Shown here piece after piece: positions 12,695 to 48,653 of a stretch of 64,000 nucleotides of DNA. Positions within the stretch are counted from its first letter, which is position 1. Each line of letters opens with the position of its first letter. A program made the position numbers and the translations under genes. The stretch lies in the NCBI GenBank assembly GCA_036625385.1, contig JAZKTU010000001.1, positions 14,865 to 78,864 of the forward strand, in the 5' to 3' direction. The DNA comes from Halovenus sp. Its GTDB lineage: Archaea > Halobacteriota > Halobacteria > Halobacteriales > Haloarculaceae. The notes under the pieces were generated by a model. That model did not search any database and was not told where the DNA came from. It worked only from the letters and a program-made list of their open reading frames with translations.

Positions 12695-12771
12695 TACTGC
12701 CGGCTATAAGCCTGTGAGCAATTTCGACCCCCGCGGGGTCGAATATCTTCACGTAGTTATAGCCGACAGTA
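12695..12771. mobile_element. Family C mini-element, 77 bp, TGA duplication
   Basis: TGA|TACTGCCGGCTATAA...TTATAGCCGACAGTA|TGA; central palindrome TTCGACCCCCGCGGGGTCGAA. Confidence 0.85.
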
Positions 12772-12867
12772 TGAGTACCTGTACCACGTGGTGATTCACT
12801 GCCTCTATTATCAGCGCGTACTTGGAAAGGTACTTGGTCCAATCAGACCCGACAGAGAGTTCAGACA

Positions 12868-13529
12868 ATGCCCGACAGACCCAGCATCTTAGTCCCGTTA
12901 CGTGTTCTCGAGGGGGAATCAATTCCGGAGGGTGTTCCCGAACTCCTTACGAACGCACACGTCGTCCTGCTTGGCTACCACGTCGTGCGAGACCAGACCG
13001 CGACCGATCAGGCGCGACGCCAGTTCGAAGACCAGGCCACCCGCCGTCTCAACGATTTCACGGCGATACTCGAACACGCGGGGGCGACAGTCGAATCCCA
13101 GCTCGTGTTCACCCACGATGGGCAGACAACGATCGACCGGATGACAGACGAGCATGACTGCCTCGCGGTACTGATTCCAAACGCAACGAGACCGCTGGAG
13201 AATGTCCTCGTCGCGGTCCGCGGGATCGTCGGCATCGATCGGTTTGTCCGCTTAGTTTCGGGGCTGTTCGCGCCGATCGACGTCGACGTAACCCTGTACC
13301 ACGTCGCTCGAGAGGACGAAACTGACGCCGACGTAGAGACGCTGCTCGAGAGATGATCGTCGAGACTTCCGACAACTACGACGCGACCGTCATGGGGGAA
13401 TCCGATCCACCAGTGACGACTTTCTTGTTCGGGATGACTGCGGACCAGATCGCCAGGCAGTTCCTGGGTCCGGTATTCGTGATCCAGCACGGGGGCCTGG
13501 ACGATACCGAGGAGACTGACAACGAGTGA
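12868..13529 (+). pseudogene. Universal stress protein (two USP domains), frameshifted near 13350
   Basis: ORF 12868-13356 (ILVPLRVLEGE, NVLVAVRG); the C-terminal half YDATVMGESDP...FLFG...FLGPVFVIQ continues in another frame to TGA 13527-13529. Confidence 0.75.
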
Positions 13530-13638
13530 TACGGACGGTTGTGATTATTTTCGGCAGGGACGTCCGATATACGGCGTATCAGCCCGCGAAACGTGTATGT
13601 TGTCACAGCAGAGCGGTAACGAGTCACAACCGTCGATA
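13530..13638. mobile_element. Family A palindromic mini-element, 109 bp, TGA duplication
   Basis: TGA|TACGGACGGTTGTGA...TCACAACCGTCGATA|TGA; 4 mismatches to 44636-44744. Confidence 0.9.
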
Positions 13639-13813
13639 TGATCCTCCAGCAGAGTGTGGGTAGACCGAGTACCGGCGCAGTACCTCGTTCCTCCGCATCC
13701 ACCGATCCGAACTGTCCCGATCAGGGGAACCCTCTGTGCTGCATTCGCGCTCCGTATTCACCACGGTCGCTGGAACGTCTCACCGATCGAGAATTTCAAC
13801 GAGGCCGATTTCC

Positions 13814-15187
13814 CTACTCCACGAGCGCCGCTTCCAGCAGTTCGAGGGGATGACGGATGTCGTACCCGGTGCCGTGTTCCATCTGCATCGCGCAGGTCGG
13901 ACACTCCGTCATGCCCACCTCGCCCGACGCGTCCTCCATGTGCTCGAACATCTCCTCGCCGATCTTCATCGACTTCTCGTACTTTTCCGCTTTCCAGCCG
14001 TAGGTGCCCGAGATGCCGGAACAGGACTCACCGACGTCCTCGATACCGACGCCGTCCAGGTCGCGGAACAGTTCGACAGCCTGCCGGTCCAGTCCCTGGT
14101 TGCGGGCGTGGCAGGGGGCGTGGTAGGCGAACTCCTCGGCGAGTCCGTCGTCGATCTCCGCCGCGTCGAGTGCGCCCTGCAGGTCCTCGTGGATGCGCAG
14201 GTACTCGACCGACTCGAAGGTGTTTGCCGCCACGTCGTCGATCCCCTCGATATCGAACAGTTCAGGGTACTCCTGGCGCAGCGCCATCGAACAGGACGTA
14301 CACGAGGCGATGGCGTCGTACCCCTGGTCGACGAGGTCCGCCATCGAGGAGACGTTGACCTCGGCGTGGCGGCGGGCATCGTCGAGCATCCCGTTTGCGA
14401 ACATCGGCGTCCCCGAACACTTCTGCTCGGGAACGACGACTTCGTAGCCGAAGTGCTCGAACACCCGGACCATCGCCCGCCCGACTTCCGGCGTGTTGTA
14501 GTTCGAGTAACAGCCGTGGAAGTACGCGACCTTCCTGTCCGCATCGACGGGGTCGCCGCGGCGCTCCCGGTTCGCCCGGGCACGCTCCCTCGACCCGGCT
14601 GCACCGCCTTCCGCTTGCCACCACTCGCGAAACGTCTCCGGCGCGAACGCGGGGAACTCGCGTTCACGGGTGACACCGAGCGTTTTCTCCATGACCCAGC
14701 GTGCCGGCCCGAAGTTCATGGCGACGTTCGCGAGCCTGGGGACCTTGCTGGCGAACCAGGCCGACAGCCGGTAGTTCGCGAGGATCCGGTTGCGCCAGTA
14801 TTTGAGCGAGGTTTTCGACATGTTCTCGGAGACGTACTCCCCGCGTGCGGTGTTGTGCATCTGGGAGAGCGGAACACCCGCCGGACAGGCGTTGTCACAC
14901 CGCATGCAGTTCGAGCATTCCATCACCGACTCGTCGATGTCGTAGTCGTCCTCGTTCTGTTTGAGACGCCACTGTTCCGGCCCCTGGAACTTCGGACCGG
15001 GGAACTCGTCGTCGACTTCCGCGACCGGACAGTTCGTATCACACGTCGAGCACTTGTAACAGGAGTCCGCGCCGGGGCGCAGGTCGAAGTCGTCGCTGTC
15101 CGGAAAGACGTCGACGGGCTCGAAGTCCTCGCCTGTGTTCGGTTCGACTGGGTCGAAGTCAGTGTCTGAGTGTTCTGCGTCGCTCAT
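13814..15187 (-). CDS. glpC: Anaerobic glycerol-3-phosphate dehydrogenase subunit C
   Basis: Two CxxCxxCxxxCP motifs, YFHGC, YHAPCH. Confidence 0.93.
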   Translation of the reverse strand: MSDAEHSDTDFDPVEPNTGEDFEPVDVFPDSDDFDLRPGADSCYKCSTCDTNCPVAEVDDEFPGPKFQGPEQWRLKQNEDDYDIDESVMECSNCMRCDNACPAGVPLSQMHNTARGEYVSENMSKTSLKYWRNRILANYRLSAWFASKVPRLANVAMNFGPARWVMEKTLGVTREREFPAFAPETFREWWQAEGGAAGSRERARANRERRGDPVDADRKVAYFHGCYSNYNTPEVGRAMVRVFEHFGYEVVVPEQKCSGTPMFANGMLDDARRHAEVNVSSMADLVDQGYDAIASCTSCSMALRQEYPELFDIEGIDDVAANTFESVEYLRIHEDLQGALDAAEIDDGLAEEFAYHAPCHARNQGLDRQAVELFRDLDGVGIEDVGESCSGISGTYGWKAEKYEKSMKIGEEMFEHMEDASGEVGMTECPTCAMQMEHGTGYDIRHPLELLEAALVE

Positions 15188-18757: not shown

Positions 18758-18773
18758 TACCCGATTAGGAGTA
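18758..18773. promoter_or_regulatory. Putative TrmB-type operator TACCC-N6-GAGTA upstream of glpK
   Basis: Near match to the motif, adjacent to AT-rich TTTTATT. Confidence 0.4.
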
Positions 18774-18854
18774 ACTTTTATTGTGATGTAGTATATTGTT
18801 TACTCTCAGGACGGTAGTAGCAGTAAATATACCGTCACACGGAGATTACAACAG

Positions 18855-20387
18855 ATGACAGAAACCTACGTCGGCGCAATCGACCAGGGGACGACCGGCA
18901 CTCGCTTCATGGTATTCGACCACAGCGGGCAGGCCGTCACAAAGGCATACAAGAAACACGAGCAGATCTACCCGGAACCCGGCTGGGTCGAGCACGACCC
19001 GATGGAGATCTGGGAAAACACCAGGGACGTCGTCACGCAGGCACTGGACAAGGAGAATATCGATCCCGAGCAGCTCGAGGCCATCGGGATCACCAACCAG
19101 CGTGAGACGACCATCGTCTGGGACAAGGAGACCGGCAAGCCCGTCTACAACGCCCTCGTCTGGCAGGACCGCCGGACCACCGACCGCGTCGAGGAAGTCG
19201 AAGCCGAAGACAAAGTCGAGTGGATCCGCGGCAAAACCGGCCTCGAATGCGACGCCTACTTCTCGGCCACCAAAGTCGAGTGGATCCTCGACAACGCGGA
19301 TCCGATCAAACTCCAGCGCATCCGGCCCGAGGACGTCCGCGACCGTGCGGAGGCCGGCGAGTTGCTGATGGGCACTATCGACTCGTGGGTGATATACAAA
19401 CTCACCGGCAACCACATCACGGAGATCTCGAACGCCTCGCGGACGATGCTCTACAACATCCACGACCTGGCCTGGGACCACGAACTCCTCGAGGAGTTCA
19501 ACGTCCCCGAAACCATGCTCCCCGAGGTCCGCCCGTCGGTCGACGAGGAGACCTACGGCTCCACCGATCCGGACGGCTTCCTGGGCGCGGAGGTGCCCGT
19601 CGCCGGCGCCCTGGGCGACCAGCAGGCGGCGCTGTTCGGCCAGACCTGCTTCGACGAAGGCGACGCCAAAAACACCTACGGCACCGGGGCGTTCTATTTG
19701 ATGAACACCGGCAACGACGCCGTCGAGTCCGAGAACGGCTTGCTTACCACCATCGGCTTCCAGGTGTCTGACGAACCGGTTCAGTACGCGCTGGAGGGGT
19801 CGATCTTCATCGCCGGCGCGGCCATCGAATGGCTCGAGGACGTCGAGCTCATCGACGACCCCACCGAGACAGCACGGCTGGCCCAGTCGATCGATTCGAC
19901 TGACGGCGTGTATATGGTCCCGGCATTCACCGGGCTGGGCGTGCCCTACTGGGATGGGCGGGCACGCGGAACCATCGTCGGGATGACCCGCGGGACCCGC
20001 CGGGAACACATCGTCCGGGCGACGCTCGAGGCCATCGCCTACCAGACCCGCGACGTCGCCGAAGCCATGGAGGCCGACTCCGGCATCGAAACGACGACGC
20101 TGCGGGTCGACGGCGGCGCCGTCAAGAACAACTTCCTCTGCCAACTCCAGTCGGACATCATCCAGACGGACATCGCCCGCCCCGAAGTCGACGAGACCAC
20201 CGCGCTGGGGTCGGCCTACGCCGCCGGCCTCGCCGTTGGCTACTGGGATAACATCAACAAGCTCCGATCGAACTGGCAGGTCGACCGCGAGTTCGAGCCG
20301 GAGATGGAAAGTAAGGAAGCCGACGGGATGTACGACCGCTGGGACGACGCCGTCGAGAGATCACTCGACTGGGCAACGGAGGAATAA
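18855..20387 (+). CDS. glpK: Glycerol kinase (copy 1)
   Basis: AIDQGTTGTR, GITNQRET, GDQQAALFGQ, KNTYGTG, ETTALG. Confidence 0.95.
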   Translation: MTETYVGAIDQGTTGTRFMVFDHSGQAVTKAYKKHEQIYPEPGWVEHDPMEIWENTRDVVTQALDKENIDPEQLEAIGITNQRETTIVWDKETGKPVYNALVWQDRRTTDRVEEVEAEDKVEWIRGKTGLECDAYFSATKVEWILDNADPIKLQRIRPEDVRDRAEAGELLMGTIDSWVIYKLTGNHITEISNASRTMLYNIHDLAWDHELLEEFNVPETMLPEVRPSVDEETYGSTDPDGFLGAEVPVAGALGDQQAALFGQTCFDEGDAKNTYGTGAFYLMNTGNDAVESENGLLTTIGFQVSDEPVQYALEGSIFIAGAAIEWLEDVELIDDPTETARLAQSIDSTDGVYMVPAFTGLGVPYWDGRARGTIVGMTRGTRREHIVRATLEAIAYQTRDVAEAMEADSGIETTTLRVDGGAVKNNFLCQLQSDIIQTDIARPEVDETTALGSAYAAGLAVGYWDNINKLRSNWQVDREFEPEMESKEADGMYDRWDDAVERSLDWATEE

Positions 20388-20389
20388 CC

Positions 20390-22967: not shown

Positions 22968-23017
22968 ACGCAGCGATCCACCGAAGCTCATAATGTGCTC
23001 ACCGTCGAAACGTGTGT

Positions 23018-32424: not shown

Positions 32425-32533
32425 TACGGATTGGTGTGATTTGTTACCGAGACGTTGAAACAGTGTGGCGGTTTCAGACTCCCGGACGCCGATACCTGGG
32501 CGGCACTGCCGAAAAGAGTCACAACAATCCGTA
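32425..32533. mobile_element. Family A element, 109 bp, TGA duplication (left TGA = gfcR stop)
   Basis: TGA|TACGGATTGGTGTGA...TCACAACAATCCGTA|TGA. Confidence 0.9.
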
Positions 32534-32575
32534 TGAGTCGACCGGGAGCGTGTCGGCCCGGACCGGTGCGACGCG

Positions 32576-35199: not shown

Positions 35200-35292
35200 A
35201 CTACTCAGAGGCTACCAAGGGCTGGAGCAAAAGCCTTCTGCAAACCGTTTCTCGGAGTGAGAAAGCGAAGCCGTCGTGGGGGTATCCGGCGG

Positions 35293-36021: not shown

Positions 36022-36194
36022 ACTGATACTACCTGGCTTCCCGGGGAATAAAACGGTACTGGAAACGGCTGGTTGGCGGGAGGCCAGCGGAACGAGAGCC
36101 GAAATCGTCCGGGGCGAAACCGCGTCGATCAGTACTGAACCAGTCACGGAGACGTTTTGACAAGGATTAAAACGAGTGCCCCGAAAGGGGAGGT

Positions 36195-36374
36195 ATGAGT
36201 GAAAGTCGACAGCGAAACACACAGAAGTGCATCTCGTGTGGCGTCAACATCGCCGGCACGAACGCCGCGACGTTCAAGTGCCCGGACTGTGGCTACGAGA
36301 TCCACCGCTGCGAGACCTGCCGGAAGCAAAGTACGCTGTACGAATGTCCCGACTGCGGATTCACCGGACCGTAA
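36195..36374 (+). CDS. Zn-ribbon small protein (DUF1610/HVO_2753 type)
   Basis: CISCG...CPDCG...RCETCR...[11 protein letters not shown]; typical position before EF-1beta. Confidence 0.88.
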
Positions 36375-36376
36375 CA

Positions 36377-36643
36377 ATGGGAAAGGTTGCAGCCGCCATC
36401 AAGGTCATGCCGCAAAGCCCCGACGTCGACCTCGATCAACTCCAGGAGCGCCTGGAGCAGGTCCTCCCCGAGGGAGCCAAGATTCAGGGTTTCGACCGCG
36501 ACGACGTCGCCTTCGGGCTGGTCGCGCTGATTCCGACTGTCATTGTCCCCGACGAGGCCGGCGGGACCGAGGCCGTCGAGGAGGCGTTCACCGAGGTCGA
36601 GGGCGTCGAGAGTGTCTCCGTCGAGGACGTCGGCCGCCTCTAG
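36377..36643 (+). CDS. ef1b: Elongation factor 1-beta
   Basis: [19 protein letters not shown]. Confidence 0.92.
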
Positions 36644-36725
36644 ACGGAGTGGGTAACTCCTCTTTGCAGTGTCGTCGTCTCGGACTTCCGGAATTGCTTT
36701 CCCCCACGCGGACCGAGTGAGACCC

Positions 36726-37817
36726 ATGACGTTCGACCGCGAGCAGTTCCACCGGCGGGCAGTCGATACCCCGTCCCACGAGGACGTCGGGGCAATGCGG
36801 ACGCTGCTCGTCGAAACCCTGCGGGCAGCGGAGGTCGAGCCACGCGTCGACGAAATGGGAAACGTGCTCGCCACCCGGGGCGACGACAGGGGGACACACC
36901 TCGTCCTGAACACACACATCGACACCGTGCCGCCACACGTCCCCTACGAACGTGAGGAGGACGTCGTGCGGGGTCGCGGCGCGTGTGACGCGAAGGGACC
37001 GCTCGCGGCACTGCTCGACGCCTTTCTTACCGCGACAGTGAGCGACGGGCAGGTGACGCTCGCGGTGACGCCCGACGAGGAGACAGTCCAGACGGGGGGT
37101 GCCCACCTCGGCGAAACCCTGGCCGCCGACGGGTACATCGTCGGCGAGCCGACCGGGTTGGCCGTCTGTCGGGCCGCACGCGGCCAGTTCGAGGGGGAGG
37201 TGAGGGTCCGCGGGGAGAGCGCCCACGCCGGGAGCCCCGAGGACGGACACAACGCCATCCGGGCGGCTGCCCCGCTGTTGCAGGCGCTCGAATCCTACGA
37301 CGAGCGCCACGGCCCCGGGGAACACGGCCTGCTCGGGCGGCCAACGCTGGTCCCGTCGGTCATCGAAGGCGGCGAAGCGCTCAACCAGGTACCCGCCGAG
37401 TGTACCATCCGGTTCGACCGCCGGCTCGTTCCCCCCGAGACCGTCGGGACGTTCCTCGCTGACCTGGAAGCGCATCTGTCCGGCTGGCTCACCGACGACT
37501 ACGAACTGTCGGTCGGTCCAGTCCGGCCCGATCAGCCCTATCCGGAAGCCTTCGAGACGCCTGTGGACACGCCGCTGGTCACGACCCTGCAGGCGGCAAG
37601 CGGCGGCGACGTGCAGGCGTTCGGTGCGGCGACGGAAGCCTCGTACTTCGCCGGGAACGCGCCGACGGTCATCTTCGGCCCGGGTGAACTCGCCGACGAG
37701 GACGGCCCGATCGCACACGCCGACCGGGAGTACGTTCCCGTCGACGCCATCGAAACCGCCGCGAACGCCGTCCGGGAGACCGTCGAGGCGCTGCTGGCAA
37801 GCGACGGGCGGCGCTGA
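36726..37817 (+). CDS. M20 family metallopeptidase/deacetylase (ArgE/DapE-like)
   Basis: NTHIDTV, GRGACDAKG, DEE, VGEPT. Confidence 0.88.
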   Translation: MTFDREQFHRRAVDTPSHEDVGAMRTLLVETLRAAEVEPRVDEMGNVLATRGDDRGTHLVLNTHIDTVPPHVPYEREEDVVRGRGACDAKGPLAALLDAFLTATVSDGQVTLAVTPDEETVQTGGAHLGETLAADGYIVGEPTGLAVCRAARGQFEGEVRVRGESAHAGSPEDGHNAIRAAAPLLQALESYDERHGPGEHGLLGRPTLVPSVIEGGEALNQVPAECTIRFDRRLVPPETVGTFLADLEAHLSGWLTDDYELSVGPVRPDQPYPEAFETPVDTPLVTTLQAASGGDVQAFGAATEASYFAGNAPTVIFGPGELADEDGPIAHADREYVPVDAIETAANAVRETVEALLASDGRR

Positions 37818-37964
37818 GACTGAAAGACCGCCACGCCAGGATGCAACGCCGAAACCGGTGCTCGAGGTCACCGCGCAAGACAAGGTCGGCCCCCACACCC
37901 ACAGGACCGTAGCGGCGGCAGCCACCTCGGTATAAGTTTGTGACCCCGGTGGGACAGCACAGGG

Positions 37965-38105
37965 ATGGCACTGCGGAACCAGCGGTGGAGCCAGGCGGAC
38001 GTCCTGCAGGCGGGCGGGTTTGTGATTGTCTCGACGCTCGTGTTGACCGCGAGCTTCCTCGGCATCGTCGGCCTGGTCACGGGCCTCGACACCCGGTTGC
38101 CTTTC
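37965..38105 (+). pseudogene. Probable 5' remnant of a membrane-protein gene
   Basis: One TM helix, then the frame runs directly into the purB 3' end. Confidence 0.35.
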
Positions 38106-39502
38106 TACGCCCGGTCGGTCGGGATGTCGTCAACCAGTTCGCTGGCGACGCCGGTGTAGTCGGCGGGCGTCAACGTTCGCAACTCCTCGCGTACCTCGGC
38201 GGGGATGTCGAGGGAGTCGAACAGATCGTGAAAGTCTGCGATGGTGACGTCTTCGCCGCGAGTGAGCGCCTTGACCTGCTCGTAGGCGTCGGCGTTGCCC
38301 TCCCGGCGGAGGATCGTCTGGACGGCTTCGCCGATGACTTCCGGGGTGGAGCCGAGGTCGGCAGCCATCACGTTCTCGTTGGGGACGACCTTCGCCAGCC
38401 CGTCCCCGAGTTTGGTGTAGCCGATGAAGCAGTGAGCGAGCGCCGCGCCGACGTTCCGCTTGACCGTCGAGTCCGAGAGGTCGCGCTGGAGGCGCGAGGT
38501 CGTGATGTAGCCCGCGAGGAAGGTGAGGTCGGCGTTCGCCTTCGAGAGGTTGCCCTCGGCGTTCTCGAAGTCGATTGGGTTGATCTTGTGGGGCATCGTC
38601 GAGGAGCCGGTTTCGCCGGAGACAGCCTCCTGGCCGAGATAGCGGTCCGAGATGTAGAGCCACGCGTCGCGGGCCAAATCCAGCAGGACGTTGTTGCCCG
38701 CCCGGAGCGCGTCGAAGACGGCGGCGAGGTCGTCACAGGGGTTGACCTGTGTCGTCAGCGGTTCGTGGGCCAACCCCAGGTCCGCGACGAAGTCCGCGGC
38801 GAAGGCGCGCCAGTCGACTTCGGGATAGGCGGCGGTGTGAGCCGCGTAGGTACCGCTCGCGCCGGCGAGTTTTCCCGAGAGCCCGTCGACGGCGTCGGCC
38901 AGTCTGGCTGTCGTCCGGCCCAGCCGGGAGGCGTACACTGCCAGTTCCTTGCCGAACGTGGTAGGCGTCGCCGGCTGGCCGTGCGTCCGGGCGAGCATCG
39001 GGAGGTCCCGGTAGTCCCGGGCCATCGCCGCGAGATCGTCCCTGAGCGTTCGCAACTCGGGCAGCAGGACCTCCTCGATGGCCGGTTTGACGAGCAGCCG
39101 ATAGGCGAGGTTGTTGACGTCCTCGCTGGTGAGCGCGAAGTGAATCCACTGGTCGGCGTCGAGGCCGTCGGGGAGTGACTCCCTGAGGAAGTACTCGACA
39201 GCCTTGACATCGTGGTTGGTCGCTTCGTACTCGCCGTACCCCGATGTCTCGAGTTGCTTGATAACGGCGGCGTCCTCGTCGGCGAATCCCTCGTACAGGT
39301 TCCGGAGGTGGGCGCGCTGGTCGTCGGTGAGCGAGAGCGGCGTCGCCGACAGGTCGGCGAGGGCGACGAGATACTCGACTTCGACCTCGAGGCGGGCACG
39401 CATGAGCGCCCCCTCGCTGGCGTACGGAACGAGCGGTTCGGTGGAGCGGGCGTACCGGCCATCGAGCGGCGAGACGGCGTCGAACGGGCCGCGCGTAGTC
39501 AT
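38105..39502 (-). CDS. purB: Adenylosuccinate lyase
   Basis: SPLDGRY, TNHDVKAVEY, ARTHGQPA, GSSTMPHKINP. Confidence 0.95.
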   Translation of the reverse strand: MTTRGPFDAVSPLDGRYARSTEPLVPYASEGALMRARLEVEVEYLVALADLSATPLSLTDDQRAHLRNLYEGFADEDAAVIKQLETSGYGEYEATNHDVKAVEYFLRESLPDGLDADQWIHFALTSEDVNNLAYRLLVKPAIEEVLLPELRTLRDDLAAMARDYRDLPMLARTHGQPATPTTFGKELAVYASRLGRTTARLADAVDGLSGKLAGASGTYAAHTAAYPEVDWRAFAADFVADLGLAHEPLTTQVNPCDDLAAVFDALRAGNNVLLDLARDAWLYISDRYLGQEAVSGETGSSTMPHKINPIDFENAEGNLSKANADLTFLAGYITTSRLQRDLSDSTVKRNVGAALAHCFIGYTKLGDGLAKVVPNENVMAADLGSTPEVIGEAVQTILRREGNADAYEQVKALTRGEDVTIADFHDLFDSLDIPAEVREELRTLTPADYTGVASELVDDIPTDRA

Positions 39503-39611
39503 GTGTTGGTGTCCTCGACTCGGGCGAAAAAGCCTGCCGGTCCGCAAAGCGACACCTGGCGAGGAATGTGGACGCCCGAAAGTTCATGCCCGACGGTCTG
39601 CAGGTCACTGT

Positions 39612-40805
39612 ATGAGCGTACGGACAGCAGTCGTGCTGGCGGCAGGCGAGGGGACGCGGCTGCGCCCGCTGACCCGGAACCGGCCCAAACCGATGTTGCC
39701 GGCTGCCGACCGACCGATTCTCGAACACGTTCTCGACGCCCTCGTCGAGGCCGATATCGAGCGACTCGTGCTGGTGGTCGGGTACCGCCGCGAGCGCGTC
39801 CAGGAACATTTCGGGCCGGCCTACCGCGGGACGCCCATCGAGTACGTCGGTCAGGCCAAACAACTCGGCAGCGGCCACGCCCTGTTGCAGGCACGAGGGG
39901 TCGTCGACGGGCCGCTGGTGGTCGTCAACGGCGACCAGCTGGTCGAGAGCGAGGCCGTCTCGAGTGTCGTCGAGGCGTTCGAGCGGGAGACAGCGCCAGC
40001 GGCCATGGGTGTCATCGAGCGCGAAGACGCGGGGAACTACGGCGCAGTGCGGTTGCGCGACCGGGACGTAGCCGAAATCGTCGAGAAGCCCGGGACCGAC
40101 GGGTTCCGGCTCATAAATGCCGGCGTCTACGCGTTCGAGGCGGCGATATTCGGGGCCATCGAGGAGACACCCCGGACTGGCGGGGAACTGGCGTTGACCG
40201 ACACCCTCGCCCGCCTGGTCGACAGCCGTCGTGTCAGAGGCGTCCGCGTGAGCGGGCTCTGGATCGACGCGACCTACCCGTGGGACCTGCTCGAAGTCGC
40301 GACGGAGGTGCTCGCACGCGGGCGGGTCCGCGTCAGCGAACACCGGGGCGGAATCTGGGTCGGGGAGGACGCCCGCATCCACGAGAGTGCAACCCTCCAG
40401 CCACCTGTCGTCGTCGGCCCGGGCTGTGAGGTCGGTGCCGGGACGGTCGTCGGCCCGGACGTGGCGCTGGGCGGGAACGTGACTGTCGGCTCGAACGTCA
40501 CGCTCGAGCGGGCGGTCGTCGAGACGGATTCGCGAGTCGGCCACGGGGCGACGCTGCTCGACGCGGTACTCAGCCAGCGCGTGCGGCTGGGCGCCGACGT
40601 CACGATCCCGGGCGGACCGGGTGACGTCCGGGTCGATCGTGCCGTGTTCGAGAACCAGCGGCTGGGTGCAGTCCTCGCCGACGGCGTCGGCGTCGGCGGT
40701 GCGGCCACCTTCGAGGCCGGAACGCTCGTCGGACCCGGCGCGACTGTCGGTGCAGGAACGCACGTCCGCGGCGAGGTACCGGCGGACACGGAGGTGCGAC
40801 GATGA
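39612..40805 (+). CDS. Sugar-phosphate nucleotidyltransferase with hexapeptide repeats (GlmU-like)
   Basis: LAAGEGTRLRPLT, PKPM, VEKP, left-handed beta-helix repeats. Confidence 0.88.
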   Translation: MSVRTAVVLAAGEGTRLRPLTRNRPKPMLPAADRPILEHVLDALVEADIERLVLVVGYRRERVQEHFGPAYRGTPIEYVGQAKQLGSGHALLQARGVVDGPLVVVNGDQLVESEAVSSVVEAFERETAPAAMGVIEREDAGNYGAVRLRDRDVAEIVEKPGTDGFRLINAGVYAFEAAIFGAIEETPRTGGELALTDTLARLVDSRRVRGVRVSGLWIDATYPWDLLEVATEVLARGRVRVSEHRGGIWVGEDARIHESATLQPPVVVGPGCEVGAGTVVGPDVALGGNVTVGSNVTLERAVVETDSRVGHGATLLDAVLSQRVRLGADVTIPGGPGDVRVDRAVFENQRLGAVLADGVGVGGAATFEAGTLVGPGATVGAGTHVRGEVPADTEVRR

Positions 40806-40869
40806 CGGGGAGAGACGCGACGGCAGCAACTCGCGGTGACGGCACCGACCGAACAGGGGTGGGGGCCTG

Positions 40870-42672
40870 ATGTGCGGTATCATCGGTTGCGTGGGTCGTG
40901 GCGGGGAGACACTCGAGACACTGCTACACGGCCTCGGGAAACTGGAGTATCGCGGGTACGACTCGGCTGGCGTCGCGCTGGTCGGCGACGGACTCGCGGT
41001 CTGCAAAACCGCGGGCGAGATCGAGGACCTCCGCGCGGCCGTGGCGGAGCGTGACCTCACGGGGACGGTCGGTATCGGCCACACGCGCTGGAGTACACAC
41101 GGCCCACCCACGGACGGGAACGCCCATCCGCACGTCGACTGTGACGGGGCGGTCGCTGTCGTCCACAACGGCATCATCGAAAACTACCAGTCGCTGCGCG
41201 ACCGCCTCGTCACCGCCGGCCACACGTTCACCAGCGACACCGACACCGAAGTCGTGCCACACCTCGTCGAAGATGCCCTGGCCGACGGGATGGAGGCCGA
41301 AGCCGCGTTCCACGCGGCTGTCGACGAGTTGGCAGGCAGTTTCGCGCTCGCCTGCGTCGTCGAGGGGACCGAGCAAGTGTTCACCACGCGGCAGGACTCC
41401 CCGCTCGTCCTGGGGTTGGGCGAGGCGGGAGGCAACGGCCCCCGGCCCCTTTACGTCGCAAGCGACGTGCCCGCGTTCCGGGATTTCACCGACAGCGTAG
41501 TCTACCTGGCGGACGGCGAGCGCGCGCGGTTGAACGGCGGCTGGACCGTCACCGACACGGCGGGCGACCCGGTGGAGACGACAGTCGAGACAGTGACGTG
41601 GGACCCGGAGGAGACTGGCAAGAGCGGGTACGACCACTTCATGCTCAAGGAGATCTACGAGCAACCCCGGGCGCTCCGGCAGTGTCTCCAGGGCCGGGTC
41701 GACGAACTCGGGCGGGCAGTCGATATCGACGATATCGGCGACCTCTCGCCGACGGGCGTCCAGTTTGTCGCCTGTGGCACGTCCTATCACGCCGCAGTGT
41801 ACGGTGCCCACCTGTTTCGCGCCGCCGGCGTCCCGGCACAGGCGTTTCTGGCAAGCGAGTACGCCACTGCGGTGCCGCCGATCGGTGACGCGCTCGTAGT
41901 CGGGATCACCCAGAGCGGCGAGACGGCGGACACGCTGTCGGCGCTTCGCGAGGCCGGGAGCCGCGGAGCGCGCACACTTACCGTGACCAACACCGTCGGG
42001 TCGACAGCCGCCAGGGAGTGTGACCACGCACTCTACATCCGGGCCGGTCCCGAGATCGGCGTCGCGGCCACGAAGACATTCGCCAGCCAGTTGGTCGCGC
42101 TGAACCTGCTCGCCGGCGCGACGACCGGCGACTTGCCACACGAGTTGCTCGGAAGTCTGCGGGACCTCCCCGGGAACGTGCAGGCCGTCCTCGACAACTC
42201 GAACGCGGCGGCGATCGCCGAAGAGTACCGCGACGCGCGGGCGTACTTTTTTATCGGGCGACGCTACCAGTATCCCGTCGCACTCGAGGGCGCACTCAAA
42301 CTCAAGGAGATCAGCTACGAGCACGCCGAGGGGTTCGCCGCGGGCGAACTCAAACACGGCCCGCTCGCGCTCGTCGATGGCGAAACACCCGTGTTCGCCT
42401 CCGTCATCGGCGACGACGAGGTGGCGGCCCGGACCGTCGGCAACGTCAAGGAAGTCGAGGCGCGGAACGCGCCCGTCGTCGCGGTGACCGACGGGCGCAG
42501 TGACGCGGAGCGCTACGCCGACCAAGTGCTCGAAGTGCCCGAGACACACCCACGGGCGGCAGCTGTACTCACGAACGTCCAGCTCCAGCTCGTCGCCTAC
42601 CACATCGCCGATATGCTCGACCGGCCGATCGACAAGCCGCGCAATCTCGCGAAAAGCGTCACGGTGGAGTGA
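40870..42672 (+). CDS. glmS: Glutamine-fructose-6-phosphate transaminase
   Basis: MCGIIG, LEYRGYDSAG, GHTRW, KPRNLAKSVTVE. Confidence 0.96.
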   Translation: MCGIIGCVGRGGETLETLLHGLGKLEYRGYDSAGVALVGDGLAVCKTAGEIEDLRAAVAERDLTGTVGIGHTRWSTHGPPTDGNAHPHVDCDGAVAVVHNGIIENYQSLRDRLVTAGHTFTSDTDTEVVPHLVEDALADGMEAEAAFHAAVDELAGSFALACVVEGTEQVFTTRQDSPLVLGLGEAGGNGPRPLYVASDVPAFRDFTDSVVYLADGERARLNGGWTVTDTAGDPVETTVETVTWDPEETGKSGYDHFMLKEIYEQPRALRQCLQGRVDELGRAVDIDDIGDLSPTGVQFVACGTSYHAAVYGAHLFRAAGVPAQAFLASEYATAVPPIGDALVVGITQSGETADTLSALREAGSRGARTLTVTNTVGSTAARECDHALYIRAGPEIGVAATKTFASQLVALNLLAGATTGDLPHELLGSLRDLPGNVQAVLDNSNAAAIAEEYRDARAYFFIGRRYQYPVALEGALKLKEISYEHAEGFAAGELKHGPLALVDGETPVFASVIGDDEVAARTVGNVKEVEARNAPVVAVTDGRSDAERYADQVLEVPETHPRAAAVLTNVQLQLVAYHIADMLDRPIDKPRNLAKSVTVE

Positions 42673-42758
42673 GGTCACCGGGCGAAGCCGACAGACAGCT
42701 CCGGGACGGAGGGTGAAATCAGCGAAGAGTCGGTGAGTTCCACCCGGACCGCCAGGGA

Positions 42759-43469
42759 TTACCAGTCAATGACGGACTTGTCCCGCCAGAACAGCCCGCC
42801 CGGACTGCCGGGCCGGAATCGCGCCAGCCACACCGGCGTCTCGGCACCCTCGGACGGACTGCGGGGTGCGCCCGGCCCGCCCATGTCGGTCCGAACCCAC
42901 CCCGGGCTCGCCGCGTTCGCGAGCAGCCCATCGTCGCCGTACTCGGCGTCCAGATACGCGGTGAATGCACCCAGCCCGGCCTTCGTGACGCGGTAGGCGG
43001 GATACGAGCCGCCCGTCCCGTGCGTAAACTGGCCGAGGTTCGAGGAGAGGTTCACGACCCGGCCACCCTCGCGCTCGCGGAGCAGAGGGACGAACTGCTG
43101 GGTGACGAGTATCGGTCCGCGGAGGTTGACCGCGACCGTCTCATCGAGCGTGTCGACGTCCATGTCGTGGAGGGTGTCGGCGCGCCGGAAGATGCCGGCG
43201 TTGTTGACGAGGATGTCGAGTCGGCCAGCCTCGGACTCGATGCGTGCCGCCGCCTCGCGAGCGTGGGCGCGTTCCGTCACGTCAAGTTCGACCGGATGCT
43301 GGTCCGGGGCGGTGATGTCGTCAGTTTCCCTGGCACCGGCATACACTGTCGCGCCGAGGTCGGCGAGTTGGGCGGCGATCGCTGCCCCGATACCACGGGT
43401 CGCGCCGGTGACCAGCGCAACCTGGTCTGTCAGCGAGTCGTACAGCGCAACGTCTGCTTCGTCTGCCAT
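42759..43469 (-). CDS. Short-chain dehydrogenase/reductase
   Basis: TGATRGIG, NNAG, YRVTK, PGWVRTDMGG. Confidence 0.9.
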   Translation of the reverse strand: MADEADVALYDSLTDQVALVTGATRGIGAAIAAQLADLGATVYAGARETDDITAPDQHPVELDVTERAHAREAAARIESEAGRLDILVNNAGIFRRADTLHDMDVDTLDETVAVNLRGPILVTQQFVPLLREREGGRVVNLSSNLGQFTHGTGGSYPAYRVTKAGLGAFTAYLDAEYGDDGLLANAASPGWVRTDMGGPGAPRSPSEGAETPVWLARFRPGSPGGLFWRDKSVIDW

Positions 43470-43561
43470 GGGTCGCGTTCGGCTTCCAGCGGTTTAGCTC
43501 TCCCGCGACCGCCACTACCGGGTTGCAAAAGGAGACGGTGGAGCGAAAGGCGGGAGGCTCG

Positions 43562-43721
43562 TACGGACTGTGGCGAGTCATTCTGCCGGCTGTACCATTG
43601 TGAACGGATCCGACACCGGGGGTGTCGAATATCTGTCCGAACGGACAGCTGACAGTATCAGTGCCGTTGCGCCCGCACCCAATCGTGCGGTCGTACCGGT
43701 ACATAGTCGCAACAGTCCGTA
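43562..43721. mobile_element. Family A element (shortened) carrying a nested family C element; right TCA = aglF stop
   Basis: TCG|TACGGACTGTGGCGA...TCGCAACAGTCCGTA|TCA. Confidence 0.8.
43581..43657. mobile_element. Family C element, 77 bp, TCA duplication, nested in A
   Basis: TCA|TTCTGCCGGCTGT...ACAGCTGACAGTA|TCA; central CGACACC-GGG-GGTGTCG. Confidence 0.8.
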
Positions 43722-44468
43722 TCACTCGGACGACTCGGCGCTCGCCGCCGCCTCCTCGGCACCGCGGAGCAAGCGCTCGGCCTTGTCGCGGTCCTCGGGG
43801 TAGCCGACGTCGACGCGCCAGCCGTCCATCCGGATGGCGTCGATCGTCCGCCCGGAGTGAAGGAGGAGGTCGATAGCGTCGCTGATTTCGTACTCGCCGC
43901 GGTTTGAGGGTTGCACGAGATGGCAGGCGTGAAAGATTGCCGGCGTGAACGTGTAGAAGCCGGTCATGACGAGATTCGACGGCGGATCGTCGGGTTTCTC
44001 GACGACTTCGACGATCTCGCCGTACTTGTTGGTGTCACAGACACCGTACCGGCCGGCTTCCTCCCAGGGAACTTCCTCGACGAGGAACGCCGCGTCGGCA
44101 CGCTGTTCGCGCTGGCGGTTGATGACGTCCTCGAGGTTCGCCTGGAAGATGTTGTCCCCCAGCAACAGCATGAACTCGTCGTCGATATACTCCTCGACAG
44201 TCAGCAGGGCGTGGGCGAGTCCGTTCTGCTCACGCTGGTGGGCGTACGTGATGGGCGTCCCCTCGAACTCGTCGCCGTAGTGCTCGATGATGACCTCCTT
44301 CTTGTAGCCGACGACGACGAACAACTCGTCGGCGTCCAGTTCGATCAGTTGCTCGAAACAGTGCGTGAGCAAGGGTTTCCCGTCGACTTCTACCATTCCC
44401 TTCGGTTTGGCCTCGGTGAGCGGCCGCAGCCGCGTTCCCTCGCCGGCAGCGAGTACGACAGCCTTCAT
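43722..44468 (-). CDS. aglF: UTP-glucose-1-phosphate uridylyltransferase AglF
   Basis: MKAVVLAAGEGTRLRPLT, KPKGMVEV, LGDNIF, VEKPDDPPSNL. Confidence 0.88.
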   Translation of the reverse strand: MKAVVLAAGEGTRLRPLTEAKPKGMVEVDGKPLLTHCFEQLIELDADELFVVVGYKKEVIIEHYGDEFEGTPITYAHQREQNGLAHALLTVEEYIDDEFMLLLGDNIFQANLEDVINRQREQRADAAFLVEEVPWEEAGRYGVCDTNKYGEIVEVVEKPDDPPSNLVMTGFYTFTPAIFHACHLVQPSNRGEYEISDAIDLLLHSGRTIDAIRMDGWRVDVGYPEDRDKAERLLRGAEEAAASAESSE

Positions 44469-44575
44469 ACCCCCTCTCCTCGGCCCGCGCCTAAAAACAC
44501 TTTGTAGGAGACGGTCTCCCCGGACAGTCATTAGACGGGGACTCTCGAACCGGGACGAGGCCGTAGACCGGTTCA

Positions 44576-44796
44576 TACGGTCGTGCGTGATTCTTTACCG
44601 CCATGGCGGGACAAAACGGGATTTTCAGGGTCTGATACGGACGGTTGTGATTATTTTCGGCAGGGACGTCCGATATACGGCGCATCAGCCCGCGAAACGT
44701 GTATGTTGTCACAGCAGAGCGGTAAAGAGTCACAACCGTCCGTATGAAACGTGGAAATACGCGATCCGGTCGTGAAAATAATCGCAACAATCCGTA
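44576..44796. mobile_element. Family A outer element (109 bp after removing the insert), TCA duplication
   Basis: TCA|TACGGTCGTGCGTGA...TCGCAACAATCCGTA|TCA. Confidence 0.85.
44636..44744. mobile_element. Family A inner element, 109 bp, TGA duplication
   Basis: TGA|TACGGACGGTTGTGA...TCACAACCGTCCGTA|TGA, perfect 15-bp TIR. Confidence 0.9.
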
Positions 44797-44828
44797 TCAC
44801 ACGATGCCGACGGTGGCCACGAGAAGGC

Positions 44829-45179
44829 TCACGAACAGGAGGACGGCAAGCGCAATGCCCGCAACTCGCTGGCGTACGACCGTGCGGGGCCGGTGAACCG
44901 CCCCGTCGTGGCGACGATGCCCCGCTTCGGGCCGTCGTAGTCGTAGGTTGCAACCGCCGAGTAGAGTTTCTGGACAACCGGTCGCCCGACCGAATCGGTG
45001 TGCTTGCACTCCACGACGACGGCGCGACGCTCCTCGCCCACCTGTTCCTCCATCGTGATGTCGCGCCCCACGTCGGCGACGCGCTCCGCTTTCCTGACGT
45101 TCTCGTACCCGAGTTTGCGGAACACGTCCCCCATCACGTCCTCGAACTCGAACCCCGAGAGTTCGTCGAGAACCGTCAT
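44829..45179 (-). pseudogene. Mrr-like restriction endonuclease domain, probably truncated
   Basis: GFEFED, DVGRDI, VVECKH, VGRPVVQKL, TTGRFT (PD-(D/E)xK); ends abruptly next to the repeat nest. Confidence 0.7.
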
Positions 45180-45285
45180 CTCCCGGGAGTGTGCGCGGGC
45201 GACGAGCGACGGACGGAACAGCGAACTATCAGGAGCTACCACCGGAGCACCGCACGACGGCAGGAGTACCTGCCCGGGATCGGTC

Positions 45286-45435
45286 TCACTCCCGTGTAAG
45301 ACCCCGGTTCCGGAGCGCCTCCGTCTCTCCACAGGTGTCGCACTCGCCGGGACGGGTCTCCGCCTCGGTTATCGCCCCACACGCGAGACACTCGTAGGTC
45401 GGCGGGTTGGCCGGATTGTGGTCGATCTCTTTCAT
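45286..45435 (-). CDS. Small rubrerythrin-like/CPxCG zinc-finger protein (49 aa)
   Basis: YECLACG...PGECDTCG...LRNRG. Confidence 0.7.
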   Translation of the reverse strand: MKEIDHNPANPPTYECLACGAITEAETRPGECDTCGETEALRNRGLTRE

Positions 45436-45681
45436 GCCATCTACTACGTCGTGTCAAGACATAACGTTTGCCATGGAGGCCGGGACGTGTCGGCGGACCC
45501 CCTGCGTCATGGGAGTTGCCGCAGGCCGGCTGCGAGGAGAACGGAAAGACACGAGTGCGGGAGAGCAAGAAGACAGAAGGGCAGTATGAGACTGCCGCTG
45601 ATAAGCCCATGGGCAATGTCGACCGCACCGTTGGAGGAATCGAGGACGGTGAGCGACGGACCGGAGGGGCAGGAAGCGTCT

Positions 45682-46764
45682 CTACTCCCCGCCGTCGGCG
45701 GCGACAGTCCGCTCGGTTGTCGGTGCGAGAGGTTCGTCGAGTCCCATCGCCTCGTCGGTCGTCGTGATGCTCTCGTCCTGTGCTTTCCTGCCCAGTGTAG
45801 CACGGATAGCGTCCACATTCTCAGGGACGACATCGGACTCCTGGTGGATGGCCTGGAACAGGTAGAGGTCGCTTGCTCCGTCGCAGCCGGGGACGCCCTC
45901 GACAGTGATCGACTCGCCCCAGATGCAGTTCTCCCAGATATCCGCCCGCGGCCGGCCGGCGTCCTGTGCGAGTTCCTTGATCGCGCCCGCGCCGTCGAGA
46001 CCGAGCCACTCGGGGATGACGAACGTCCGGGACTCGTCCGCAAGCAGGTCCCGGACGTCCGCTGCCCTGGGTTCGGATTCGAGCGTGACGTTGATACTAT
46101 GCATGTGCATCAACGTCGCGGGGACCTTGAGCCCGAGCGTGTCGATAGAGAGTTCCGGGAAGATCGTCGTGACGTCGGGACCGTGGTGAGAAGGCAGGGA
46201 GATGGGGTTCGGAAGGATGTCGTTGATCGGGCCGCGGCTGCTCTGTGCGGGGTCACCGCCGCGCCTGACGAGCGTCGCGCGGACCTTCTCGACGCCGTAG
46301 GCCTCCTGCAGCGGCGCGACGAGACGGGAGAGGCCAGTCGTGTTACAGGAGACGACCCGGACGAGGTCGGCACCCTCGACGGTGTCGTAGTTGGCACGAG
46401 CGTTGAAACTCGCGTCGACGACGTCGGCGTCTTCCCCACCCTGGAGGATGGCAGGCGTGTCGTGTTCGCGGTACATGTCGGCGTTTTCCGCACCGATGCC
46501 GGACGGACAGGCGTCGACCACGATATCGCTCGCAGCGACCAGATCCTCGACGTCGCCCGCAAGCTGGATGCCGGCCTCCGCGAAGCGTGGCTTTCGCTTC
46601 TCGACAGCGGCGTAGAGGTCGAAACCTTTCTCGACGGCGCTCTGTGCCTCGAAGTTCGGGCGGGTTTTGGCGACGCCGACGACAGCCATATCGGGCTGCT
46701 CTCGGACGGCGTCCGCGACCCGTTTGCCGATGGTTCCGTAGCCGTTGATGCCTACCTGAATCAT
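45682..46764 (-). CDS. gap: Archaeal type II glyceraldehyde-3-phosphate dehydrogenase
   Basis: [38 protein letters not shown]. Confidence 0.93.
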
Positions 46765-46940
46765 TGTCTGAGCGTTCGATACTGGCCGTCAAAGGCGTTG
46801 TGATTGGCTCAGATCGTGTGTGGAGTCCCGACTTGCCGGGCACGACGGTCGGACTGCGGGGCCACACCCCGGCTGGGACCGCTGAAGCGAGATTTTTATG
46901 CTCGAGAACTGAGTTATACCGATAAATCGTCCGGTGACGT

Positions 46941-47087
46941 GTGTACCGTCGACAGTTCCTGGGGCTGGTCGGTGGGACCGGCCTCGTGGCCACGGCGGGT
47001 TGCTCGGACGTCATCGGTGGAGACGGCTCGTCACCCAGTCTCGACCCGACGAGGTGGCCGCCGTCGTTTCGGATCCGCCGCCCCAAC
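46941..47087 (+). pseudogene. 5' remnant of a Tat-exported lipoprotein gene
   Basis: MYRRQFL twin-arginine motif and TAGC lipobox; interrupted by the repeat nest at 47088. Confidence 0.6.
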
Positions 47088-47112
47088 TCATACGGATTGT
47101 TGTGGTTCTTTA

Positions 47113-47191
47113 TACTGTCGGACGGAAGTCATGATATTCTGCTCGTTCCACGTGGGGCGAGTGAAAGTATCAACAGTTCCGTCCGACAGTA
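47113..47191. mobile_element. Family B element, 79 bp, TA duplication
   Basis: Identical (inverted) to 10996-11074. Confidence 0.9.
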
Positions 47192-47223
47192 TACCGCGAC
47201 GTTGAGACAGTGTGGTGGTTTCA

Positions 47224-47332
47224 TAGTGATTATTGCGATTGGTTTCGTGACCACGTCGCGTGAACAGCAGTTGCGCGGTCCGAAACACCCGAACTGTGAC
47301 GGCCCGGCGGTAAAGAGTCGCACTAATCACTA
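47224..47332. mobile_element. Family A variant, 109 bp, TCA duplication
   Basis: TCA|TAGTGATTATTGCGA...TCGCACTAATCACTA|TCA. Confidence 0.85.
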
Positions 47333-47485
47333 TCAGACCGTGATATAGACCCCGGGGTTCGCTGTGCGCACTATGATCCGACCCGCGAGACTGACCGGAC
47401 CGAATGGGTAATGTCGACGCCCACACCCTCTCCCCGCGAGGTCCCGGCAGTAACGCCTTTACACGCGCCGTCCTACCGACGCCAC

Positions 47486-48439
47486 ATGAACAGTTCGCTG
47501 CGCACGCCCGCACAGACTGCCGTCGAGCAGTGCATGGGACTTCGCCCCGGCGAGTCCTGTCTCGTGGTCACCGACGACGAGCGGGAAGCGATCGGGAAAG
47601 CACTCGACAGCGTCGCCCGCGAGACGACCGACGACGTGGCGACGATCCGCTATCCGCCGGGCGACCAGCACGGTGCGGAACCGCCGAGACCCGTCTCGAC
47701 GGCGATGACCGGCGCGGACGTCGTGCTCGCGCCGACGACGAAAAGTCTGAGTCACACCACTGCACGCATCGAGGCCACCGACGCGGGTGCCCGGATGGCG
47801 ACGCTCCCCGGCATCACCGACGATGTCTTTCTGATGGGGCTCGACGCCGACTACGACCGCATCGCCGACGAGTGTCGACGGTTGCTCGGGCAGGTCGGCG
47901 ACGCCGAGGAGATCCGGGTGATGTCACCACAGGGGACCGACATCACGTTCCGTCCCGGCACGCGCGAGTGGCTAGAAGACACCGGTATCAACCACGACCC
48001 CGGCGCGTTCTCGAATCTCCCGGCGGGCGAGGTGTTCGTCAGCCCCGAGACCGGCGACGGCACAGTCGTCGTCGACGGGACGATGATGCCCCACGGAAAG
48101 CTCGACGGCGACGTCGTCGAATTCACCGTCGCGGACGGCGCCGTGACACATATCGCGGACGACGCCGTCCGCGCAGAGGTCGAGGAAGCAGCCGAAACGG
48201 CTGGCGACGGGGCGTACAACCTCGCGGAGTTGGGCATCGGCACGAACGTCGCGGTGACCGATCTTGTCGGGTCGGTGTTGCTCGACGAGAAAGCCGGGGG
48301 AACGGTCCACATCGCGATCGGCGACGACCACGGGATCGGCGGCGACGTGGAGGTACCGATCCACCTCGACGGGATTCTCACGGAACCGACAGTGTACGCC
48401 GACGGCGAGGAAGTGACCCTCCCGAGCGCCGGGGAGTAG
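47486..48439 (+). CDS. Aminopeptidase (M29-like)
   Basis: SLSHT, NLPAGEV, AELGIGTN, DEKAGGTVHIAIG, HLDG. Confidence 0.88.
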   Translation: MNSSLRTPAQTAVEQCMGLRPGESCLVVTDDEREAIGKALDSVARETTDDVATIRYPPGDQHGAEPPRPVSTAMTGADVVLAPTTKSLSHTTARIEATDAGARMATLPGITDDVFLMGLDADYDRIADECRRLLGQVGDAEEIRVMSPQGTDITFRPGTREWLEDTGINHDPGAFSNLPAGEVFVSPETGDGTVVVDGTMMPHGKLDGDVVEFTVADGAVTHIADDAVRAEVEEAAETAGDGAYNLAELGIGTNVAVTDLVGSVLLDEKAGGTVHIAIGDDHGIGGDVEVPIHLDGILTEPTVYADGEEVTLPSAGE

Positions 48440-48465
48440 CGGCTGGGATGCGGTGTGGGACCGAC

Positions 48466-48542
48466 CGCGTCGGGGCTGTCCGTCCGGAGAGAGATCCGAC
48501 ACCCGGGTGTCGAGTGTGTTCACCAGGTTACAGCCGGCAGTC
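48466..48542. mobile_element. Family C element with degenerate left arm
   Basis: GGCTGT...CGACACCCGGGTGTCG...ACAGCCGGCAGTC|TCA, abutting the family A copy. Confidence 0.65.
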
Positions 48543-48545
48543 TCA

Positions 48546-48653
48546 TACGGACTGTTGTGACTCGGTCCTGCCAGGCCGACACAGATCTCGCGAGTCGGGT
48601 TTAAATCGACGGTTCTGTCGGGGCGGTGTCGAAAACAATCACGACAGTCCGTA
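48546..48653. mobile_element. Family A element, 108 bp, TCA duplication (right TCA = stop of the HTH-CBS gene)
   Basis: TCA|TACGGACTGTTGTGA...TCACGACAGTCCGTA|TCA. Confidence 0.9.

What the first reader, a model, noticed from the sequence alone, without database searches (positions are those of the whole stretch)
12695..48653. Left and right arms co-vary within each copy, pointing to selection on base-pairing
Seen, arm pairs by copy: TACGGACGGTTGTGA/TCACAACCGTCCGTA (44636), TACGGATTG/CAATCCGTA (32425), TACGGACTGT/ACAGTCCGTA (48546 and 43562), TAGTGATTA/TAATCACTA (47224). In family C, GGCTATAA/TTATAGCC (12695) contrasts with GGCTGT/ACAGCC. Substitutions on one arm are mirrored on the other. Family A ends remain distinguishable further in (TTTTCG-type vs TTTACCG-type). 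Inference: the functional substrate may be a folded ssDNA or RNA hairpin, or the arms are homogenised by copy-back during mobilisation, rather than acting as two independent protein-binding TIRs.
Basis: partly seen in the sequence, partly recalled or inferred. Interest (0 to 1): 0.75.

Follow-up and report, generated by a model that had tools for sequence, protein, structure and literature searches.

The report
Mini-transposons whose ends evolve together
These are tiny non-coding jumping elements of salt-loving archaea, likely moved by IS630 transposases, whose two mirror-image ends change together over evolution, likely because one end is now and then copied from the other and not because pairing is selected.

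Summary
The quoted arms are there, but five of the six cited copies carry a mismatch within the 15-bp arm that the quotes stop before or skip. The elements are 78-80 and 108-109 bp MITEs (about 450 in the genome) with a 3-bp TGA/TCA duplication; their ends match haloarchaeal IS630 elements with the same duplication. Mirror change is real between subfamily founders and survives a tree-based correction (17 mirrored changes against 2.6 expected in this genome; 23 against 4.7 across relatives). Within subfamilies it is nearly absent (104 one-sided, 2 mirrored). Perfect pairing is not needed: founders with 1-3 mismatches multiplied, the parent IS ends match at a median 10 of 15, 109-bp interiors do not fold, and there is no G-U bias on the transcribed strand. 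The central loop occurs flipped in 8 of 17 copy groups in relatives, the known mark of template switching. Best reading: ordinary double-strand cut-and-paste MITEs with occasional arm-to-arm copying. Left open: a co-varying central stem found only in the short class, and a fixed mismatch at position 16. The scan noted this family before in another genome, without a transposase.

The parts
12695..12771 (.). Family C MITE (GGCTATA subfamily), 77 bp, TGA...TGA; arms differ at position 6
13530..13638 (.). Family A MITE, 109 bp, same subfamily as 44636; arms differ at positions 3 and 4
32425..32533 (.). Family A MITE, 109 bp, TGA...TGA; arms differ at position 10
43562..43721 (.). 80-bp A/B-type MITE interrupted by a family C copy (160 = 80 + 77 + 3 duplicated bases); arms differ at position 11
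43581..43657 (.). Nested, decayed family C MITE, 77 bp, TCA...TCA
44576..44796 (.). 109-bp family A host element with two unlike arm types (7 of 15 differ), interrupted by the 44636 copy (221 = 109 + 109 + 3)
44636..44744 (.). Family A MITE, 109 bp, TGA...TGA, perfect 15-bp arms
47224..47332 (.). Family A MITE (TAGTG subfamily), 109 bp, TCA...TCA; arms differ at position 10
48546..48653 (.). Family A MITE, 108 bp, TCA...TCA; arms differ at position 11; the right TCA is the stop codon of the minus-strand ORF 48654-49223
11075..11152 (.). Family C MITE, 78 bp, with a family D copy against its left end
50681..50758 (.). Family C MITE, 78 bp, TGA...TGA; arms differ at position 7
10996..11074 (.). 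Family D MITE, 79 bp, TA duplication
47113..47191 (.). Family D MITE, 79 bp, TA duplication, nested in a family A element that starts at 47091

Best explanation
These are non-coding MITEs with a 3-bp TGA/TCA duplication and IS630-type ends, likely moved as double-stranded DNA by IS630 transposases in trans, and their arms change together likely because DNA synthesis now and then switches template between the nearby inverted arms, after which a founder copy multiplies. Shown: the duplication, end similarity to IS630 elements, mirrored change between founders, its near absence among single copies, success of mismatched founders, and flipped central spacers. Inferred: that IS630 does the moving; that the copying is a replication or repair template switch (flips could also come from recombination between oppositely oriented copies); and that it is concentrated in the transposing lineage, for example during gap repair of the donor site.
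For: Duplication: 297 of 398 A/B/C copies have identical 3-bp flanks; of 8 copies with an empty site elsewhere in the genome, 7 A/B/C show 3 duplicated bases and 1 D shows 2. Partner: an IS630 (NF033545, E 3.5e-43) in this genome is bounded TGA-TAC...GTA-TGA, 1069 bp; relatives carry ends close to family C (L062, L064, L065), B (L093, 14 of 15) and one A subfamily (L098). IS ends are asymmetric: 25 of 26 distinct end pairs match at 8-13 of 15, median 10, while 8 of 9 A/B subfamily consensuses are perfect. Family C has the IS left-end outer arm on both ends but keeps one left-type and one right-type inner part, which is simplest to explain by copying. Tree test: 17 vs 2.6 (this genome, A/B), 23 vs 4.7 (outer arm) and 15 vs 1.9 (central stem) for 39 founders from relatives; control zone 0 vs 1.4 and 1 vs 2.2. 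Flipped spacers in 8 of 17 multi-copy groups, e.g. 15:7, 10:8, 10:4; in this genome one family C centre occurs 5:2 in both orientations. Template switching is known to give both arm homogenisation and spacer inversion without selection (PMC8604942 abstract; PMC5453318 passages).
Against: No transposition or template switch was observed. In resting copies mirrored private changes are no more than chance (3 of 144 vs 1.9 expected; 2 of 106), so the copying must be rare or tied to the transposing lineage, or selection must help. Mutation alone does not explain why positions 16-22 stay unlike (position 16 mismatched in 120 of 122 copies) or why only the short class has a central stem (36 of 39 vs 1 of 19). 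No A/B-type transposase was found in this 85% complete assembly. The flip evidence comes mostly from relatives, and related spacers may share one old flip. Trees rest on 54-80 columns that include the tested ones, so p-values are rough.
Confidence: 0.68

Rival explanations
1. Selection on DNA structure during transposition: the short elements would extrude a hairpin or cruciform, with the central stem as a hinge that lets the two transposase-bound ends meet, so that paired founders jump better.
For: Central stem in 36 of 39 short founders but 1 of 19 long elements and in families C, D and B here (z -3.1 to -4.7); it co-varies (15 vs 1.9; 9 of 13 pairs with double changes). Lengths fall into two classes about 30 bp apart (74 and 45 of 122). 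Founders are far more symmetric than single-copy changes predict.
Against: 16 of 29 arm-pair types with 4 or more copies are mismatched, up to 3 of 15 in an 18-copy group; central pair 27/54 is unpaired in 20 of 39 founders; a mid-stem mismatch in family C is carried by 46 of 121 copies. Foldback origin plus template switching would also keep a central stem, and selection cannot itself flip a spacer.
Confidence: 0.17
2. Plain subfamily structure: each subfamily was spread by its own transposase, which fixed one sequence at both ends; apparent co-variation is pseudo-replication.
For: Within subfamilies 104 departures are one-sided and 2 mirrored; in family C the all-column tree gives only 5 vs 1.9 (outer) and 2 vs 0.8 (centre, not significant). 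Two transposase clades about 35% alike match the C and A/B groups.
Against: One transposase serves two unlike ends in 25 of 26 IS end pairs, so binding does not force symmetry; the non-terminal central stem co-varies as well; mirrored changes fall on 12-14 separate branches; spacers flip.
Confidence: 0.08
3. Host selection on an RNA stem: copies in 3' untranslated regions act as terminators or stabilisers, so pairing in the transcript is kept.
For: The duplicated TGA is the stop codon of a neighbouring gene in 131 of 398 copies against 1419 of 14266 other non-coding TGA/TCA sites, and convergent gaps are enriched (rough gene calls of my own).
Against: Mismatches on the transcribed strand of 180 copies: G-U 66, A-C 49 (p 0.14), A-G 61, C-U 44. 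Old copies decay one-sidedly (91 breaks vs 5 mirrored). Insertion at a TGA stop leaves the gene intact, which explains the position. No Rfam match in the window.
Confidence: 0.05
4. REPIN-like or IS200/IS605-like movement as a folded single strand by an HUH (Y1) transposase.
For: Compensatory changes are described for REPINs (PMC3116915 passage); all families fold end to end.
Against: Target duplication is present; the ends match DDE IS630 elements; no PF01797 match in this incomplete assembly.
Confidence: 0.02

Closest known systems
IS630-linked MITEs: RUP of Streptococcus pneumoniae (107 bp, IS630-Spn1) and Correia/NEMIS of Neisseria (PMC2229807, passages read)
   Same: Short, non-coding, high copy, TA at the termini, TIRs similar to an IS630, end-to-end stem, nesting in other mobile elements, a size class near 107 bp.
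   Different: Families A, B, C duplicate 3 bases (TGA/TCA, less often TAA/TTA) instead of TA; archaeal host; two size classes, the short one with its own central stem; arm co-variation and spacer flips measured here.
Template-switch mutagenesis at quasi-palindromes (PMC8604942 abstract and outline; PMC5453318 passages)
   Same: Arm homogenisation, spacer inversion and apparent compensatory change without selection.
   Different: Here it acts inside a multiplying mobile element, so single events are amplified, and a zone between two stems stays unhomogenised.
Small mobile repeats SMR-A and SMR-B of Haloquadratum walsbyi (PMC3119063, passages and section 31 read; its old .doc supplements not seen)
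   Same: About 110 bp and 80 bp, strong terminal inverted repeats, nesting in other elements, haloarchaeal.
   Different: SMRs are reported to make no target duplication and to have ends unlike any transposon; these do duplicate and match IS630. Sequences were not compared.
REPINs with RAYT (PMC3116915, passages read)
   Same: Hairpin-forming extragenic repeats with compensatory changes.
   Different: HUH single-strand chemistry and no IS630-type ends; here there is a duplication and a DDE partner.

Membership tests
MITE (non-autonomous TIR element) | Short, multi-copy, no transposase gene, terminal inverted repeats | tested here: met
   451 elements of 70-113 bp with 15-bp arms
MITE (non-autonomous TIR element) | Target site duplication shown by empty sites | tested here: met
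   7 copies with a 3-bp and 1 with a 2-bp duplication, of 8 with an empty site in the genome; orthologous empty sites in other strains not obtained
IS630-family MITE | Ends and duplication shared with an autonomous IS630 | tested here: met
IS630-family MITE | Canonical TA (2-bp) duplication | tested here: not met
   Met by family D only; A, B, C and their IS630 partners duplicate TNA, so they are a variant
IS630-family MITE | Mobilisation in trans by the transposase | not testable with these tools
   needs an assay; no A/B-type transposase found in this assembly
REPIN / IS200-IS605 PATE | No target duplication, HUH Y1 partner | tested here: not met
Haloquadratum SMR-A/B | No target duplication; ends unlike known transposons | tested here: not met
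Haloquadratum SMR-A/B | Sequence similarity to HqIRS40-43, 55 | not tested
   sequences not at hand; no Haloquadratum record among the 80 titles shown in a scan that stopped at its limit
Structured RNA under pairing selection | Double-sided changes in stems | tested here: met
   19 of 28 pairs, 0 of 500 shuffles; also expected from template switching
Structured RNA under pairing selection | G-U favoured on the transcribed strand | tested here: not met
   66 vs 49, p 0.14
Structured RNA under pairing selection | Transcript exists | not testable with these tools
   no RNA holder listed

The most novel reading that the evidence does not exclude
An order-wide clade of haloarchaeal IS630 MITEs with a 3-bp TNA target is shaped by DNA geometry: 108-109-bp elements loop as duplex DNA, while 78-80-bp elements need a central stem extruded as a cruciform hinge to bring their ends together, and the fixed mismatch just inside the 15-bp arm is required. 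The stems would then be kept by selection at transposition, with template switching supplying the mirrored variants.
Probability: 0.2. Interest if true: 0.7.

Novelty: new variant of a known kind. Interest (0 to 1): 0.4.

Why it matters
It is a clean warning that strong base-pair co-variation (0 of 500 shuffles) in a mobile repeat need not mean a functional RNA or single-strand substrate; flipped spacers give a simple check. It also links a widespread haloarchaeal repeat group to two IS630 clades with a 3-bp TNA target, and gives a testable system in Haloferax for how element length and a central palindrome affect very short transposons.

Tried and rejected
Rfam: no match in the window. No long element bounded by the MITE arms themselves in this genome. 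PF01609 hits were not followed, since the IS630 ends fitted. A 1-bp duplication with longer element ends was considered; sequence alone cannot exclude it, but the flank table and IS ends fit 3 bp. Copy-back at every jump: rejected, mismatched founders multiply. Fold-back overshoot as the cause of mixed TGA/TCA flanks: a few cases looked at by eye showed no inverted flank beyond the target preference. Sequencing runs: no RNA holder listed; contigs of 4 of the 19 runs laid on window 32000-51500 showed no usable empty site or strain variant. Stratified permutation in family C supported pairs 6/73 and 33/46 but not 14/65 or 15/64, and 34/45 only in one of six settings. The link of 6/73 can also arise because sites near the ends escape conversion between dispersed copies. 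Literature searches for IS630 with a 3-bp TNA target or these haloarchaeal MITEs gave 0 papers; searches on TIR homogenisation gave nothing on prokaryotic MITEs in their listings. ISfinder, most subscription papers and the supplements of the MITE survey (bioRxiv 10.1101/2024.01.18.576219, passages read) were not seen, so the families and the TNA target may be catalogued there.
Full report
Observation. The quoted arm strings are in the window, but on full 15-bp arms only 44636 of the six cited copies is perfect; the other five have one mismatch that the quote stops before or skips. Two cited copies are parts of nests: 43562-43721 is an 80-bp element holding a family C copy, and 44636 sits inside a 109-bp host (44576-44796) whose two arms are of different types.

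Census. The window lies in a 2.98-Mb, 85% complete assembly; named records with the same kind of element are haloarchaea. A scan for paired arms found 451 elements: C (200, mostly 78 bp), A/B (198, mostly 108-109 or 80 bp), D (34, 79 bp) and E (19, 113 bp counting a TA at each end). This scan selects for arm similarity, so raw symmetry counts are biased upward. 297 of 398 A/B/C copies have identical 3-base flanks, with preference C-TGA-G. Eight copies have an empty site elsewhere in the genome: seven A/B/C show 3 duplicated bases, one D shows 2. The duplicated TGA is a neighbouring gene's stop codon in 131 of 398 copies, against 10% of other non-coding TGA/TCA sites (my own rough gene calls).

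Partner. PF13358 gave three IS630 hits. The one on C176 has two overlapping ORFs matching NF033545 and is bounded TGA-TAC...GTA-TGA over 1069 bp. Relatives gave two IS630 groups with TNA duplications: one with ends like family C, one like A/B; further relatives duplicate TA, as D does. Loci where no clear end pair with TNA flanks was found were left out of the count. Of 26 distinct end pairs kept, 25 match at only 8-13 of the outer 15 bases and one (L032) at 15. So the transposases do not need symmetric arms. Family C carries the IS left-end outer arm at both ends but keeps one left-type and one right-type inner segment; B carries right-type ends twice. No A/B-type transposase and no Y1 transposase was found in this assembly, which does not show absence.

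Is the co-variation real? In family C (121 of 144 copies of 78 bp could be oriented) the two strongest of 210 site pairs are mirror pairs: 6/73 (r 0.83; CC 92, TT 21, CT 6, TC 1) and the central 33/46 (r 0.70); both survive permutation within interior-defined strata, three other mirror pairs mostly do not, and rare changes are mirrored no more than by chance (3 of 144 vs 1.9). In the nine largest A/B subfamilies 8 consensuses are perfectly symmetric although the arm differs between them, while departures of single copies are one-sided 104 times and mirrored twice. Counting mirrored changes on the same tree branch against a position-shuffled null: A/B consensuses of this genome 17 vs 2.6; 39 founders of the 80-bp class from relatives 23 vs 4.7 (outer arm) and 15 vs 1.9 (central stem); the inner zone gives 0 vs 1.4 and 1 vs 2.2; family C copies give 5 vs 1.9 and 2 vs 0.8 on an all-column tree, 14 vs 5.0 and 11 vs 6.6 on trees without the tested columns (which inflates counts). 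Pair counting on the 39 founders gave 19 of 28 pairs with double changes, 0 of 500 shuffles. In 39 copies from G034 a 3-copy T/T group sits inside a C/C burst, with one mixed copy. A pattern that lets each arm vary freely found position 3 matched in 121 of 122 copies and position 10 in 118, but positions 6 and 7 in only 105 and 93 (copies are not independent). Conclusion: real between founders, close to absent among resting copies.

Is pairing required? No. 16 of 29 arm-pair types with at least four copies are mismatched, including an 18-copy type with three mismatches (for relatives only the fetched copies are counted: 164 elements plus the 39). The 108-109-bp interiors fold no better than shuffles (z -0.8 to +1.0 here; 1 of 19 below -2 in relatives). 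On the transcribed strand of 180 copies G-U does not significantly exceed A-C (66 vs 49, p 0.14) and A-G and C-U are as common.

What copies the arms? The central loop of the 80-bp class occurs in both orientations relative to the fixed left/right asymmetry in 8 of 17 multi-copy groups of relatives (five genomes), and a family C centre in this genome occurs 5:2 in both orientations. Selection for pairing cannot turn a loop; strand exchange between the arms does. Template switching is published as giving both arm homogenisation and spacer inversion and as mimicking compensatory change (PMC8604942, abstract and outline; PMC5453318, passages). One copy (L344) has positions 16-22 homogenised as well, so such events occur but were not seen amplified. 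Because resting copies show little mirroring, I infer the copying is concentrated in the transposing lineage, plausibly in gap repair of donor sites (recalled for Tc1, from no call), or is helped by selection. Recombination between oppositely oriented copies would leave similar marks and cannot be separated here.

What is left unexplained. Lengths fall into two classes although the pattern allowed 79-109 bp (74 at 79-81, 45 at 107-109, 3 between), about three helical turns apart (helical phasing of short transposons is recalled, not tested). Only the short class has a central stem (36 of 39), and B shares its central palindrome with C although their ends come from different IS630 groups. The perfect arm stops at 15 bp: position 16 is mismatched in 120 of 122 copies and in 181 of 186 family C copies here. 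These points keep a DNA-structure role open.

Comparison. It works like RUP and Correia elements (PMC2229807, passages) and differs in the 3-bp target. A generic end pattern hits 102 of 301 genomes of the order, some by chance. It resembles Haloquadratum SMRs in size but fails their defining lack of a duplication (PMC3119063). Reviews and surveys read in passages did not describe these families in the parts seen; two targeted searches gave nothing, and ISfinder was not available. Verdict: a new variant of IS630 MITE, with real concerted evolution of the arms best explained by a known copying process; interest moderate.

Noticed in passing
G000, genome-wide (e.g. end of contig C1, near 17390): A 27-bp near-palindrome occurs about 41 times; it looks like two fused ends of an ISH3-type element (family name recalled), a possible minimal MITE or excision footprint.
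   Followed up: no
L032: An autonomous IS630 whose two ends are identical over 29 of 30 bases, unlike its 25 asymmetric relatives; a likely end-to-end conversion in a full-length element.
   Followed up: partly
L166 (G234:C1:218479-218591): A 107-bp two-copy MITE that still has IS-like unlike ends (7 of 15 match), a possible not yet homogenised stage.
   Followed up: partly
G000:C128:2163-2636 (L002): A decayed IS630 interrupted by a family E MITE.
   Followed up: partly
G000 family E (e.g. C127:28291-28403): Third size-109 family if the terminal TA is the duplication; its IS partner was not identified.
   Followed up: no
window 18864-19622 and 23683-24441: Two paralogous ORFs of about 510 aa (18855-20387, 23671-25206), 79-88% alike in DNA over 300-bp blocks.
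   Followed up: no
G000, e.g. C2:15354-15599, C10:1760-1962, C75:7387-7590: Long family A variants (150-250 bp) carry a tandemly repeated internal unit of about 30 bp.
   Followed up: no
window 49696-49775, 58462, 25243: Further decayed or partial family C and A ends.
   Followed up: no
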